DNA of 64,000 nucleotides, from the NCBI GenBank assembly GCA_013286935.1, contig JABDES010000003.1:1-64000 (forward strand), given 5' to 3'. The position numbers were made by a program. This document shows, piece by piece, positions 55,501 through 61,500 of this stretch (position 1 is the stretch's first letter; each line of letters begins with the position of its first letter). The DNA is from Candidatus Babelota bacterium (GTDB taxonomy: Bacteria; Babelota; Babeliae; Babelales; Vermiphilaceae).

Positions 55501-58500
55501 AGCAAATAAAGACATACAAAATAATAGCGGGGCCTTCCCCTATGATATTGCAAAAGAAGCATGTAAACATGGATTCACTCATAAGGCTCAGAAGTTAGAC
55601 CAGCATCCTGTAGATCCTATCAGCGAACAAACGCTCAATCGATTAAAGCCAACTAAATTATTAAACGAAGAACAACAACGCCATGAACTTGTCAGAAGAG
55701 GGTCCATTGCCGCTGCAGTGGCCATCGCGATGGTTGGAACGGGATACTTGGTATACAAAAAGGCGGACATCATAAAGGGCTGGTTTAAGAAAAGCCAAGA
55801 TGAATAAAGCTTACCATGTCATTCATCTTTAATGGCGCCAATTGTATTCAATTGCAGCATCAATGCGCAATGCGAACATTGACCTACGGGAACAATGCTT
55901 GGTATTCGCACATTTTGTCCCAAGGTTACTAACAGCCTATTGACTTGAGACCACTTTTCTTTTGGCAATAGTTCCAAAAGAGCTTTTTCTGTTTGTTCTG
56001 GGGTATCTGTTGTTACAAGCCCAAGCCTATTAGATATTCGATGCACATGAACATCCACACAGATAGCCGGTAGATCAAATGCCGCAGAACGTACTAGATT
56101 CATTGTTTTTCTTCCAACACCTGGCAATGAAAGCAGATCAGACTCATCGGGCGGAACTTTTTGAGCAAACCTATCACAAATATGCCAAGACACATCTCGT
56201 ATTGTTCGTGCTTTTGTTTTATAAAAACCAACTGAATGAATGGTATGTTCTATCAAATCAAGTGGCAAGTTTGCCATATCATGAGGTGTTTGAGCCAAAT
56301 CAAAAAGACGGCGCGAAACAGGCAGCGATACAACATCTTTAGTTCGCAAGCTTAATAAACAGCTTATAAGAATAAGAAATGGATTTTGACCATATTCTTG
56401 AATAATTATCGGCGTTGCCGGTAACTTCATACCAATAACAAAGCCCTCGAGATTATTTAAAATCTCGAGGGCTTTTAATCTTAACGCCTCACCGGAATGA
56501 GTGTTATTGCAGTTCATATTGTGTTATCGTCCAGGAGGTGCGATATCAATAATAAATTGTGCAACTGAGATAACAACAGCAAGTAGCTGTAAAAATGAAA
56601 ATACTGTTTTATTCTTAAGTTTTGAAAAATATGCCATGCCGTTCCTTTACAAAATTATTATTATATACTTAATAAAACTGTACCCAAGTATATAAAATAC
56701 TAATGAACAAAGCAACTGATTAATGCAAAAATTTCTTTATGTCTTTAATAATATAGATTCTGTTTTTGGCAGTTATCCATTTATTTTATTGGTTTTTACT
56801 AGTTTTTTCTTGTTTAAAGTTGTAATTGTTACCAATCTTCTTTTTTCAGGAAAAAAATTTTTATCCGCAAAAAAATCCGTAATTTACCTTATGGGATTAA
56901 TAATATCATCTATGGCTGGCGATCTAATATGGATTATAAAATCTGTTAGATCATTGCAGATATGTACGCTAAGCTTTCCATTTTATTTACTTGCTTTGCG
57001 TTTTTCATGGGCATTATATCCTGTGTTATACCAATTTTTTGCTTTATTTTTAGAAAGTGTTACTAAAAGACAAAATGAAAAACTAGAAAGTCGCGAGATG
57101 TTTTTCATTTGCATAACCAGCATGTTCTCTATGTTTTTTGTTTATGTTGCAATTATGCACTTTAACTGCGCGTTAGACAAAGATCGTTCGGTTTTAGAAA
57201 ATGTAATGCAACAGGTTACCATGCTATACACCTCGCTTCCGCTAATGCTTTCAAGCATCGGTATAGTAATTTTTAAAATGAATAAAAATATAGTACCAAG
57301 AATACTTAAAAAACAACTTATTTTTTTCCTGAGTTGTGTTATTGCCCCTATGTGGGTATTTGACTTCCTACAGGCAATTCCCATCAGTTCTCCTCTTACC
57401 TGGGTGTCAAATAGTTATACTTTTCTTACATTTTCAAACATGTTTCTAATTGGTGCAATCTATTATAGCTCTAGCAAAATGATGCGACTGCGTTTTTTAA
57501 ACATCACTAAACATGTATACGAAATCCCACGTTTTGATTTTATTCAGGAATTTAAGGAGATTTTAGAACGGCTAAGTAATACCAATAAAGAAGTGGAGAT
57601 GAATAAACTGGTGCAAGAGTTTTTTCATACAGGACTTGAGGTTGATCCGCACCACGTTTATTTTAGTTTGCGCCCCGTGGCTGAAGATAATCAATATCCA
57701 ACATATGACTGCGATGAAGAAGTAATAGAATTTCGAGGAGTACAGGAAAAGTACCATGGCACGCCTCAGGCGCAAATCGATAGGCTTATGGAGGGAGTTG
57801 AGCGGTTTTTTAAATCCTATCCAAAAATAGTTACGGATTCGACCGATAATCTACCTATATTCATTCATGATGAAGTTGCTTTTGACAACTTCTACGAAGA
57901 AACTCTTGATGGCACCATGATGCTTACATTTTTAGAGCAAGTATCGCTTGATATATTTTTACCCATTTACCATAAAGGCAGACTTGTTGCGTATATTACC
58001 GTTGATCGTAATGCGCGCGTTGGTGGTAAAAAACTATTTTATACGGATGTCGAACGTGCCCAAATGCTCGTTTTTAGTAATTACCTAACAAATATTATTA
58101 ATTTATTGCAAAATAAAAATATCGATTTAGCGATGCAAAGAGAGCATCAACTACGACAAACGCTGCACCAGAAGGTAGAAGAATTAAATCATTATAGAGA
58201 ATCTCTGCGTGTTTATGCTCAAACCAAACAACTATCTTCCCAAATTGGTGTAATATTTTATAAACACCGCTCATTTACTTTTGGAAATCTAATAGCCCAG
58301 GACCTCCTTAAAATAAACCCTAATGTTTCCAGAGGCCATCCATTTTCTCAAGAATTAAGGCAATTGGTCAACCAAGTTCTTGAGTCGCGTGCAATGCACA
58401 GTAAAATTGTTGATGATGGAAAGGACAGATTTCTTGTATTTCAAGCCTCGCCGCATAGCGAAGGTAATATGGTCATTATTACCGTTTCTTTGCCATCAAT

Positions 58501-61500
58501 TGCTGATATTGTATCAAAGCATACATTGCTTTTAAACGACTCGGTAGACTGGGACTATTTTTTATATCTTGAGACAACCAGACATGGCCAATTGATGCAT
58601 GAAGCAATTCCTGGCTCTACCGAACCGGTTATTAAATTTAAAATTAAATTGTTACAGATTGCATTAAGCAAAAAACCTACGCTCCTTGTGGATATTCCTC
58701 CTGAAGATATCATGCCATTTGTTGAGCTGCTTCATTCTATTAGTTTGAAAGAAAAATTACATAGCATCAAAATACAATCTGCGCTATCAGGACCTGATCT
58801 CTCACTCAAGCTATTTGGCGTATCTAAACTTTCATCTTGCGTATCATCAACGCCATCAATAGTAGAAAAGCTACACAATAAAGGAACCTTATTTATACAT
58901 AACGTTCATTATCTGCCATATGAAACGCAGGAAATGCTCCTTGAATGTATAAAATTTGGATTTTATCGCAACATACATACCGATCAAAGAATTAATGCCG
59001 ACATTCGTCTGATTTGTACGGTAGATCAGCCACTAGACCAAATAATACACCGTATGCCCGAAAGCGCTAAGCTTCTTGGTGAATTTACAAGCACCACTAT
59101 TTTATTACCGCACGTATCGCAATTTGCTGCTACCGATTTGGTAGATATGGCAACCAGCTTCGGCCGAAGTATCTCCCGGGATAACCCGCTTAGCAATTTG
59201 TTATCACTGACAAATCATGAAAAAAATAGTTTCCAGTTAAGGCCGCCAGATAGCATTACAGAACTTAAAAATCGTGTTCTTATGTTGTTGGAATCAAAAC
59301 AAAAACAGCACAAAAAATTATTGCAAGACAGTAAAGATTCAGATACAGATGATATTCAACTCACTGAGCAAGCGCTTTCTGAAATTGCTGTTTTAGGTCG
59401 CAGAGCACTACAGGACAGAGCATCTATGGCAACATTATGGAAAATATTTAAAAATCAAAATGCCATAGCAGACTTTTTAAAAGTGAACCGCTCTTCGGTA
59501 AATCGTCGATGTAAAGAGTTTAATTTATAGAACTAGTGAACCCTATATAACCGCCATGTAACCTATCCAAATACATAAAAAGAGGGCTTAAAAGATAATT
59601 TCTGGGATATACAGAACTATAGAATTACTTTCAGAAAAGGTCTAAAATAGTCCTCAAATAATTGTTTATCAAACAAGACTAAACCGTACCAAAAAAATAA
59701 GGATTTGCGATGAAATTATCTTTACTTGTGTTACTATCTTTTATACTTCCAGTCAGCCCTACACAAGGCATGACGCTAGGCACTAAGCAGCAAACCAGTG
59801 CTGACGGGTTACGGTATGCCCTTATTACTGCCATTGTTGATCAAAAAGAAGAACTCGCCAGATCTATTTTAACGTTAATAACTCAAGAAAAAGTTAATAT
59901 TAATGAATCCGTCTCTCGAGTACATGACGGACCTACGGCTTTCCATATAGCTACATTTAAAAATATGGAAACTATTGCAGATGAATTACTTCAAAACCAC
60001 GGTGCATCCGTAGACCCTCTGGATGATAATGGTCACACGCCGCTACACATAGCCTGTTTAACGGAAAATGCCACGATGGTAACATTCTTGCTTGCACGAA
60101 ACGCTTCAGTTCATATATTTAGCAGACAGGGAGCCACGCCATTACACCTAGCTTCAAAACGAAATAACGCCTCAATCATACATCTTCTAGTCAATAGTGG
60201 AGCAGATGTTAACTTGCCAGATATTCAAGATCACGATACACCATTGCATGAAGCAGCCTATGCCGGAGCTGACCTGTGCGCCAAAGCTCTCATTGAACAT
60301 AACGCATACATTCATAAAAAGAATCATAAAAAAATTAGTCCGCTAGAAATTACCCAGAAACTTCATGCAAAGAATGCGCCCTTTGCACAGTCAATTTTAG
60401 ACGCAAATTTAAATGAAAGCCGACAATATGAAAATATAATTTTTATGACACAAAAATGTAATATAGGTCTAAAATAAAGGAAAAATTAATGAAAAAGTTG
60501 TTATTCTTCGCTGGATTATTACCTCTATCAAACAGTGTTATCGCCTCTCATGGCCTGAGAGATACTGTTTTTAATGATAGAAATGGGGGCTCTGCAAGCT
60601 ATTCATCCGGTGGCAATTCATTTAGCAATTCCTCATCTATTAGAGATTCGGTATTTCGTGAATCTATTTCTCATGACAAAGATGCCAGTGGGCGCGTAAC
60701 CACCGGCAATAGCAATATTGCAAAATTAGCCACAACGTCTTCATCTACTTCGGCAAGTCGCGAAGCTCAGATAGTCATCTATGCTAAAATGGCAAAAGAG
60801 GCAAATATTACAGAGCCATCTCTATTGGATTATTTCCATCAACATGACAAATCATTGGCATCAAAGACTGAAAAGGTACATGAAGATTCCATTGATACAA
60901 TGTATGAAAAAATACTTATTGAACAAGGAGTTACTGGCACCGTTCTTACGCAAAAAATGCAATCTATTAAAGAAGAACGAGCAAATTATGTAACGGCTTT
61001 AGAACGCGAGTTAAAAGAAAAAAATGCCTCTGAAGCCCGAGCGCATGCTCAAGCGGCAAAGAATGCAGCAAACCGTGCCGAAATAAATAGAATTCACGTT
61101 CAAAATAAGGGTAGAGTTACCAAAAATTAGGTGGTTGCGTCTCTATACAGGCCTTGTTCCCACTCAACAAGCAATCTAATCCTAGTACGTAAGTTCTGGT
61201 TTATCAAAAAGCCCTAGTAAGGAATAAGTCTAGAGCATAGCTCTTAAATCTTTACATATATCCATTACTCGCCTAAAAACACCCCTCTTTTAAAATTAAT
61301 ATTTTTTGTTGCATTGCATATTTGAAAAGTATTATACTTGTCTTGTATATCAATATCAATTATGTTTGCAACGCAGAAGGAGCATTATATGAATTTTTCC
61401 TACAAGCTCATTGTCATAATAATTTTATGCACATTGTCACAATGCACTTTGGGGCGCATAGGAAGCACTACAGTATACTTATACAATCCAAATGCATCCG

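What a model noticed while it worked through the whole genome (the two positions that open the first line are those of the whole stretch)
56723..59530. Membrane one-component regulator with dead sigma54-activator AAA in a phylum without sigma54
g00293 (and paralog g00302) is a 935-aa protein with about seven N-terminal TM helices, GAF-like and PAS-like middle domains, an NtrC-type AAA+ domain that has lost Walker A and GAFTGA, and a C-terminal HTH. It is conserved in most Babelota, which lack sigma54 and show a single sigma70-family factor, so it must act as an ATP- and sigma54-independent membrane-tethered regulator.
Evidence so far: 96 of 120 relatives at E<=1e-20, up to 7 matches. Sigma54 DBD over cut-off in 0 of 121, control 4 of 14; one Sigma70_r2 match in each of 40 of 40. 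Profile hits only NtrC/PspF/FleQ-type structures (E 3e-17); GESGTGKE aligns to LDMPDEDL and GAFTGA to PIFGIK; same in 8 aligned orthologs. Model pLDDT 66 shows seven N-terminal helices then alpha/beta domains.
(Added by a program. Inside this text positions count along the whole contig: contig position 1 is position 1 of the stretch shown here. "Call 12" and the like, gene names such as g00115 and contig names such as C1 are that model's own, and its searches are not shown. The text may have been shortened before it was handed on; [...] marks where a part breaks off. The agent that wrote the report below was given it as the finding of a first reader that could run no searches.)

Follow-up and report, generated by a model that had tools for sequence, protein, structure and literature searches.

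The report
GPCR-fold transcription factor with partner peptide
Most Babelota, tiny bacteria that live inside protists, carry a membrane protein that joins a predicted GPCR-like seven-helix domain to an ATPase domain missing its catalytic motifs and a predicted DNA-binding helix, and a small overlooked peptide gene sits beside it that likely encodes its ligand, which would make this a new kind of peptide-signalling switch.

Summary
It has seven membrane helices, GAF, a coiled coil, PAS, an NtrC-type AAA+ domain lacking all its catalytic and GAFTGA motifs, and a near-invariant HTH. It occurs in 152 of 201 Babelota genomes; none has sigma54 over cut-off.

Three new results:
(1) The 7TM model has a class-A-GPCR-like fold (Z 16.7).
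(2) An overlooked small ORF (56524-56637, minus) lies divergent from the gene. It encodes a signal-peptide-like chain with Pro-Pro near its C-terminus and has a sigma70-type promoter. It flanks 115 of 157 family copies, against 2 of 825 control genes. It follows the receptor into tandem copies, is missing from the ten receptor-less loci checked, and varies most with the receptor's outer half.
(3) The family never co-occurs with an NtrY/NtrX-like pair (32 genomes).

Best reading: a one-component peptide receptor and transcription factor working with sigma70, likely a population-counting switch. Binding is untested and no DNA target was found. Sigma54-independent pseudo-activators are known; this peptide-receptor pairing was not found in my literature searches.

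The parts
56723..59530 (+). Receptor-regulator gene, 935 aa: 7TM-GAF-coiled coil-PAS-pseudo-AAA+-HTH
56774..57490 (+). Seven-transmembrane domain (residues 18-256), predicted N-out/C-in, class-A-GPCR-like fold; conserved K32, D67, W70, R93, W96
   Evidence: model pLDDT 91.8; Z 16.7, rmsd 4.2, 242 aligned; Foldseek TM about 0.4-0.64, best E 0.004; Lys/Arg bias of inner loops; conservation
57518..58117 (+). GAF domain (residues 266-465)
58118..58231 (+). Long conserved helix (likely coiled coil) linking GAF to PAS
   Evidence: model helix 177-239; conservation
58232..58498 (+). PAS domain (residues 504-592)
   Evidence: Z 11.5 to 7jl6, rmsd 2.4, 83 aligned
58613..59287 (+). NtrC-type AAA+ domain without Walker A Lys, Walker B DE, GAFTGA, arginine fingers or sensor II Arg; invariant Asp662 in the old P-loop
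59405..59527 (+). Fis-type helix-turn-helix with near-invariant NRSSxxRR helix
   Evidence: HTH_8 in 19 of 68 members at E<=0.1; profile aligns through the HTH of 4l4u; 340 of 378
56524..56637 (-). Small peptide gene, 37 aa: basic N-region, hydrophobic core, C-terminal DIAPPGR; likely ligand precursor
56642..56647 (-). Shine-Dalgarno-like AAGGAA of the peptide gene
   Evidence: sequence
56687..56715 (-). Sigma70-type promoter of the peptide gene: -35 TTGCTT (56715-56710), 17 bp, -10 TATACT (56692-56687); the -35 lies 7 bp from the receptor ATG
   Evidence: pattern in 77 of 121 loci against 0.9 in shuffles
56522..56530 (+). Extended -10-like element (TGnTAnnnT) at the peptide stop, pointing to the receptor; a transcript from it would run antisense over the peptide gene
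   Evidence: 75 of 121 against 16.8 in shuffles; 62 of 79 nth-adjacent and 13 of 42 other copies
55819..56517 (-). nth (HhH-GPD endonuclease III-like), conserved left neighbour; marks the site, not part of the system

Best explanation
This is likely a one-component peptide-sensing transcription factor: the neighbouring small gene likely makes an exported peptide whose Pro-Pro tip is predicted to bind the GPCR-like seven-helix domain, which would switch the DNA-binding end of the same protein. Shown by sequence and calls: the peptide ORF with its own sigma70-type promoter, its tight linkage to each receptor copy, the domain order, loss of all ATPase and sigma54-contact motifs, and no sigma54 found in 201 genomes. 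Inferred steps: (1) the precursor enters the Sec route and signal peptidase I or an RseP-type protease releases a 5-8 residue C-terminal piece (here about DIAPPGR); (2) the piece builds up in the periplasm and in the host compartment as the parasite multiplies; (3) it binds an outward pocket lined by conserved W70, R93 and W96 (aromatics for the prolines, Arg for the C-terminal carboxylate), with variable outer positions setting specificity; (4) the change passes through GAF, coiled coil and PAS to the pseudo-AAA+, used only as an oligomer scaffold; (5) the HTH acts on sigma70 promoters. I favour a density-triggered developmental switch (division, maturation or exit) as the output. That output is the weakest step, since no target was found.
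For: Strict test (Shine-Dalgarno, hydrophobic core, PP): 115 of 157 receptor starts, against 2 of 825 other genes in this genome and 1 of 335 in relatives' loci. It replicated in 17 of 25 receptor starts not seen before. Looser test: 121 of 155; a similar loose scan hit 1 of 231 other intergenic regions here and 0 of 303 in four other genomes. Only M, P and P are invariant among 75 aligned peptides. All four Pro codons are used at both positions, so the constraint is on the protein. PP lies 1-3 residues from the C-terminus in 93 of 121. The peptide follows the receptor, not nth: 42 of 121 lie at copies away from nth, and in 8 of 10 receptor-less genomes nth and xerC are back to back with no such ORF between them. 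In 28 tandem pairs median identity is 30% in 7TM, 43% GAF, 54% AAA and 85% HTH. Both copies have a peptide in 15 pairs; the cores differ in all 15, and the second is Arg-x-PP in 9. Peptide-core similarity tracks the outer half of the 7TM (partial rho 0.15, 0 of 300 permutations as high) more than the inner half (0.08) or the cytoplasmic part (0.00). Several long precursors repeat the PP unit (L040, L062, L066, L133, L288). GPCR-like fold. Signal peptidase I and an M50 protease are present here. Receptor genomes almost lack histidine kinases: 3 of 152 over cut-off.
Against: No direct evidence of binding, expression or processing. 42 of 157 copies fail the strict test and 34 of 155 the loose one, including this genome's paralog. 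The covariation is weak, the sequences are kin, and the outer half is also the fastest-changing part (27% mean identity), so it may only track recent ancestry. In short precursors PP directly follows the hydrophobic stretch and I saw no obvious cleavage site, so the peptide may stay in the membrane. Babelota have an outer membrane (PMC6561590, passage), which a signal must cross to reach other cells. No operator was found at the locus or genome-wide. Helical bundles reach middling Z by chance (caution level about 13), and no Foldseek hit passed E 0.001. 49 of 201 genomes live without the system.
Confidence: 0.5

Rival explanations
1. The peptide is the receptor's partner but stays in the inner membrane or periplasm of the same cell, as an MgrB-like feedback modulator (recalled analogy) or a tethered ligand that reports on secretion or envelope state. 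The system would then be a self-check, not cell-to-cell signalling.
For: Median length is 32 aa, with a hydrophobic run from -15 to -4 right before PP, which would place PP at the outer membrane face next to the receptor pocket. The receptor gene usually precedes xerC and a penicillin-binding protein gene (41 loci each). The envelope is diderm (PMC6561590).
Against: Long precursors put 15-40 polar residues between a signal-like leader and PP, and some repeat the unit, which fits release and processing better. Paralog-specific cores and high between-species variety fit an identity signal.
Confidence: 0.27
2. The small ORF is not a ligand. It regulates receptor expression through overlapping antisense transcription or Pro-Pro ribosome stalling, and the 7TM senses something else, such as a host lipid or metabolite.
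For: The receptor-directed promoter lies beyond the peptide stop (75 of 121), so the two transcripts would overlap, as in the reciprocal prgQ/prgX RNA control (PMC3181467 abstract). Pro-Pro near a stop is a known stalling context (recalled). Lipid and metabolite GPCRs are among the fold matches.
Against: It does not explain the conserved signal-peptide-like shape (Lys/Arg within the first 8 residues in 104 of 121), the repeated PP units, the switch to Arg-x-PP in second copies, or covariation with the outer 7TM half.
Confidence: 0.13
3. The protein is mainly a membrane tether for the chromosome (nucleoid anchoring or segregation, with XerC and PBP2) rather than a gene regulator, with the peptide as modulator or bystander.
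For: It sits in a conserved housekeeping block, nth-receptor-xerC-PBP. The HTH is nearly invariant, yet no promoter motif was found.
Against: It has a sensor-type 7TM-GAF-PAS input and expands to several copies per genome with diverged sensors. It is absent from 49 genomes, and where checked nth and xerC stay neighbours. In this window xerC is not the next gene.
Confidence: 0.1

Closest known systems
Rgg/SHP peptide quorum sensing of streptococci (PMC3509411, abstract and passages)
   Same: Regulator gene divergent from a small hydrophobic peptide gene; the C-terminal few residues are active; paralogous regulator-peptide pairs share one DNA site
   Different: Rgg is a cytoplasmic protein with an N-terminal HTH and a helical peptide-binding region. 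Here the receptor is a 7TM membrane domain fused to a C-terminal HTH, in a diderm intracellular parasite, and the motif is Pro-Pro
AgrC/AgrD and ComD/ComC peptide systems (recalled)
   Same: A polytopic membrane receptor reads an exported peptide from outside
   Different: No kinase or receiver domain; the signal goes straight to DNA. No conserved Cys or double-Gly in the peptides
Sigma70-working atypical enhancer-binding proteins: VpsR (PMC6158489 abstract), Caulobacter NtrC (search listing); NtrX, TyrR, DhaR (function recalled)
   Same: NtrC-type AAA+ plus Fis-type HTH without sigma54 or ATPase residues; a GAF-PAS input as in DhaR (Foldseek 4lrx)
   Different: Those are soluble and use a receiver domain or small ligands. 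Here every catalytic motif is lost and a 7TM domain anchors the protein
Transmembrane transcription regulators such as ToxR, CadC, BcrR (PMC10269533, passages)
   Same: One polypeptide spans the membrane and carries a DNA-binding domain; BcrR senses a peptide antibiotic
   Different: Seven helices, a GAF-PAS-pseudo-AAA+ relay and its own linked peptide gene. The paper's main text has no hit for HisKA_7TM, Sigma54, HTH_8 or Dependentiae; its supplements were not seen
HisKA_7TM (PF16927) plus GAF sensor modules of histidine kinases
   Same: Nearest language-model neighbours of residues 8-470 and 8-266, score 0.90-0.95
   Different: PF16927 is not among the 25 of 31 families shown for 68 members; the output is a transcription factor, not a kinase
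Class A GPCRs
   Same: Seven-helix arrangement, Z 14-16.7 over about 220-245 residues
   Different: 4-16% identity, no profile hit to any solved chain, and a fused DNA-binding output instead of a G protein

Membership tests
sigma54 enhancer-binding proteins | NtrC-type AAA+ domain | tested here: met
   PF00158 in 67 of 68 members; profile E 3.6e-22 to 3dzd
sigma54 enhancer-binding proteins | Walker A GxxGxGK and Walker B DE | tested here: not met
   the Lys site is Leu/Ile/Val/Ala/Thr; DE in 0 of 378
sigma54 enhancer-binding proteins | GAFTGA loop | tested here: not met
   0 of 378
sigma54 enhancer-binding proteins | Arginine fingers and sensor II Arg | tested here: not met
   mostly Ser781, Glu787 and Gln/His846
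sigma54 enhancer-binding proteins | sigma54 in the genome | tested here: not met
   0 of 201 over cut-off; 0 of 61 for AID
Atypical sigma70-working activators (VpsR/NtrX/TyrR/DhaR type) | AAA+ plus Fis HTH lacking sigma54 contact | tested here: met
Atypical sigma70-working activators (VpsR/NtrX/TyrR/DhaR type) | Acts on sigma70 RNA polymerase at defined promoters | not testable with these tools
   inferred from a single sigma70 in 98 of 101 genomes
Atypical sigma70-working activators (VpsR/NtrX/TyrR/DhaR type) | Allosteric nucleotide or c-di-GMP binding in the AAA+ pocket | not tested
   no model of this domain was made; Asp662 is invariant
Transmembrane transcription regulators | Membrane helices and a DNA-binding domain in one chain, no phosphotransfer | tested here: met
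Transmembrane transcription regulators | Binds DNA while in the membrane | not testable with these tools
   needs experiment
HisKA_7TM sensor domain | Match to PF16927 | tested here: inconclusive
   not among the 25 of 31 families shown; feature similarity 0.90
Class A GPCR | Seven-helix GPCR topology | tested here: met
   Z 16.7, rmsd 4.2, 242 aligned, on a predicted model
Class A GPCR | Sequence similarity to GPCRs | tested here: not met
   no profile hit at E<=10; G-protein coupling not tested
Rgg/SHP (RRNPP-like) systems | Small hydrophobic peptide gene divergent from the regulator | tested here: met
   115 of 157
Rgg/SHP (RRNPP-like) systems | Cytoplasmic helical-repeat receptor with N-terminal HTH | tested here: not met
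   7TM N-terminus and C-terminal HTH
Rgg/SHP (RRNPP-like) systems | Processed C-terminal peptide binds the regulator | not testable with these tools
   needs a binding assay
Agr/Com peptide two-component systems | Membrane receptor is a histidine kinase with a response regulator | tested here: not met
   no kinase domain; HisKA over cut-off in 3 of 152 carrier genomes
Agr/Com peptide two-component systems | Dedicated AgrB or ComAB processing and export genes | not tested
   not searched genome-wide; no such conserved neighbour seen

The most novel reading that the evidence does not exclude
Babelota run a third class of bacterial peptide quorum sensing. A secreted Pro-Pro peptide binds a GPCR-fold receptor that is itself the transcription factor, and it counts siblings inside the protist host to time division and exit. 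It replaces the NtrY/NtrX pair in three quarters of the phylum, and tandem copies read different peptides onto one DNA site.
Probability: 0.4. Interest if true: 0.93.

Novelty: categorically new. Interest (0 to 1): 0.83.

Why it matters
If true, a bacterial GPCR-fold domain would have a genetically encoded peptide ligand, and over a hundred natural receptor-peptide pairs are already in hand to test specificity. It would also wire a membrane peptide receptor straight to DNA without a kinase or G protein, a compact design of interest for biosensors. Babelota have one sigma factor and mostly no two-component system, and a cultured member was reported to lack quorum sensing (PMC6561590; I did not test whether that strain carries this system). 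This could be their main developmental switch, and synthetic peptides make it testable without genetics. The rating 'categorically new' rests on the inferred ligand link. Without it, the protein is a new variant of transmembrane, sigma54-independent regulators (interest about 0.5).

Tried and rejected
Complex prediction of the 7TM domain with the 37-aa precursor: no verdict, score 0.00, controls not folded, partner fold uncertain; not used either way.

Sequencing runs: no RNA holder listed.

DNA target not found. AACGA-N11-TCGTT proved part of a repeat of this genome and is not enriched elsewhere. TTTC-N5-GAAA is enriched in three carrier genomes but not a fourth. It also occurs in receptor-less families (18 of 23 and 8 of 9) and is not enriched upstream of the receptor (42 of 155 against 37.8), so it is not assigned to this protein. 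No conserved dyad was found around either promoter.

Leader peptide for nth: rejected, because the ORF follows the receptor and not nth. A conserved GGAGG DNA word instead of Pro-Pro: rejected by synonymous codon use. Rhodopsin: no conserved Lys in helix 7.

Origin from the Babelota NtrX-like protein: unresolved. The quick tree gives three separate groups with a very long branch; 12 of 28 outside sequences were left out because my Walker A pattern missed them, and the careful search did not finish.

Profile searches of the 7TM and GAF-PAS regions against solved chains found nothing. Plasmids gave one weak AAA hit. Earlier scan notes: nothing.

Literature: ten searches found no description of this protein family or peptide. 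The library lacks most subscription papers.
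Full report
Observation. The ORF is at 56723-59530 (+), 935 aa, and a diverged 875-aa paralog lies 11 kb further along the same contig. The protein matches 152 of 201 sampled genomes of the phylum and none in six families. A profile search of the 49 others found only AAA+-domain matches, in 23 of them. Source names of homologs read Dependentiae or Babeliales where a taxon is given, with one Limnocylindria label. Of 70 loci from the GTDB scan, named taxa are Babeliales, Dependentiae or TM6; 9 are labelled Pseudomonadota and 1 Acidobacteriaceae by their depositors, which I did not check. A profile of residues 8-606 finds only 495 of 1.84 billion representatives at E<=0.001, of which I saw the top 150.

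Anatomy. Residues 8-266 fold into seven helices at pLDDT 91.8. Lys/Arg bias puts the N-terminus outside and the C-terminus inside. The model's best structural matches are GPCRs and one designed GPCR-like fold, top Z 16.7 with rmsd 4.2 over 242 residues. Foldseek agrees but only at E>=0.004, and helical bundles call for caution below Z about 13. Language-model neighbours are HisKA_7TM and GAF clusters, a lead only. The AAA+ domain aligns to NtrC-family structures. Among 378 distinct full-length members none has Walker B DE or a GAFTGA-like word, the Walker A Lys site is mostly Leu, Ile or Val next to an invariant Asp, and the arginine fingers and sensor II Arg are replaced. The HTH helix NRSSxxRR is kept in 340 of 378. 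Sigma54 was not found in 201 genomes, and 98 of 101 show one sigma70; this incomplete genome shows none.

The missed part. Between nth and the receptor lies a 37-codon ORF on the minus strand, 56524-56637, ending DIAPPGR. I fixed a test after seeing about 90 loci: ATG, Shine-Dalgarno, hydrophobic core, then Pro-Pro. It passed at 115 of 157 receptor starts, against 2 of 825 other genes here and 1 of 335 in relatives, and at 17 of 25 starts not seen before. A looser test gives 121 of 155, with few or no hits in controls. Misses include PG or PT variants, less hydrophobic peptides and true absences such as this genome's paralog. Pro codons vary freely. PP is 1-3 residues from the end in 93 of 121. 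The ORF has a sigma70-type promoter whose -35 abuts the receptor start (77 of 121, shuffles 0.9). A receptor-directed extended -10 lies past the peptide stop (75 of 121, shuffles 16.8), so the two transcripts would overlap. That second element is strong at nth-adjacent copies (62 of 79) and weak elsewhere (13 of 42).

Linkage and covariation. 42 of 121 peptides sit at receptor copies away from nth. In 10 receptor-less genomes nth and xerC are back to back in 8, and no peptide ORF lies between them. In 28 tandem pairs the HTH is 85% identical but the 7TM only 30%. Both copies carry a peptide in 15 pairs, always with different cores, and the second is Arg-x-PP in 9. Columns that separate Arg-type from acidic-type receptors fall mostly in the 7TM (20 of 26). 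Peptide-core similarity follows the outer 7TM half (partial rho 0.15) more than the inner half (0.08) or the cytoplasmic domains (0.00), over 117 receptors. These sequences are kin and the outer half evolves fastest, so this is suggestive only.

Alternative system in the phylum. Three families lacking the receptor carry a receiver-AAA-HTH protein that keeps Walker A but lacks the GAFTGA loop (32 of their 33 genomes, threshold 1e-60). They also carry a histidine kinase (31 of 33); the one I read is NtrY-like, with HAMP, HisKA and HATPase domains. No genome has both systems and 17 have neither. Only 3 of 152 carriers have a kinase over cut-off. This may be one lineage split, not many events. Both AAA+ types show a Lys-Asn-like Walker B (Lys in 20 of 20 NtrX-like sequences), hinting at common origin, but the tree cannot test it.

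Mechanism. I read this as a one-component peptide receptor. A Sec-routed precursor is cut by signal peptidase I or an M50 protease (both present; their role is inferred). The Pro-Pro tip binds an outward pocket with conserved W70, R93 and W96 (inferred from conservation and topology; no contacts were computed). The signal runs through GAF, coil and PAS to a pseudo-AAA+ scaffold, and the HTH acts on sigma70 promoters (inferred). A released, population-counting signal gets 0.5, a membrane-retained modulator 0.27, RNA-level control with another ligand 0.13, and a chromosome tether 0.10. The life cycle of Chromulinavorax, with amorphous replication bodies that later divide into cocci (PMC6561590, section 7), offers a plausible output. 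I found no target, and did not check whether that strain has the system.

Comparison and what I read. The gene layout works like Rgg/SHP (PMC3509411, abstract and passages), the membrane sensing like Agr/Com (recalled), the output like VpsR (PMC6158489, abstract), and the transcript overlap like prgQ/prgX (PMC3181467, abstract). It fails a defining feature of sigma54 activators, Rgg-type receptors and Agr/Com kinases. It meets the broad definition of a transmembrane transcription regulator (PMC10269533, passages; its supplementary lists were not seen and might include these proteins). For PMC6561590 I read passages and section 7. TyrR, DhaR, NtrX, AgrC, ComD and MgrB functions are recalled. 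Ten searches found no account of this family or peptide.

Verdict. The feature is real and richer than first reported. The peptide-receptor linkage is shown in the genomes. Ligand binding, processing and regulated genes are inferred.

Noticed in passing
L088:865-2145 and L117:25-2154 (families f10, f12, f15): A second degenerate NtrC-type system: a receiver-AAA-HTH protein with Walker A kept, the GAFTGA loop deleted and Walker B changed, usually next to an ABC ATPase gene, plus one NtrY-like kinase. Never found together with the 7TM family.
   Followed up: partly
G000:C2:63689, 85350, 123852, 125731, 131573; C32:1528; C1:135296 and others: A palindrome TTTC-N5-GAAA sits in the -35/-10 spacer of sigma70-type promoters, mostly before genes for signal-peptide proteins (10 sites against 1 control in this genome). 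It is also seen in receptor-less families, so it is likely the operator of another, unidentified regulator.
   Followed up: partly
G000:C11:7041-7465, C13:20688-21106, C18:6939-7363 and about 15 more sites: A palindromic repeat family of this genome; several copies flank near-identical 96-aa ORFs that look like GIY-YIG nucleases (name recalled), suggesting a REP-like mobile unit.
   Followed up: partly
G000:C3:70738-73365 (L002:502-3126): Diverged paralog with an altered recognition helix (HPSSVYRR), no Pro-Pro peptide gene found upstream and weak pocket conservation: a possible orphan receptor with a different DNA target.
   Followed up: partly
L079-L087 (G126), L138, L149, L170: Receptor copies broken by stops or frameshifts, some still with an intact peptide gene; either decay or assembly error.
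   Followed up: no
L062, L066, L081, L288: Precursors with repeated PP units, up to five near-copies in L062 and Cys-containing repeats in L062 and L066, recalling multi-copy pheromone precursors.
   Followed up: no
window 48868-52440 (+): 1190-aa MscS-family channel with a long N-terminal coiled region.
   Followed up: no
window 59710-60477 and 61338-62519 (+): Signal-peptide-bearing ankyrin-repeat and DnaJ-domain proteins follow the receptor here in place of the usual xerC and PBP genes; possible host-directed secreted proteins.
   Followed up: no
L003:5701-8350 (-), 11453-12709 (+), 15513-17348 (+): Two AAA+ ATPases with signal-peptide-like starts and two collagen-like Gly-x-Thr repeat proteins, with glycosyltransferase-like genes between the latter, lie around the paralog.
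   Followed up: no
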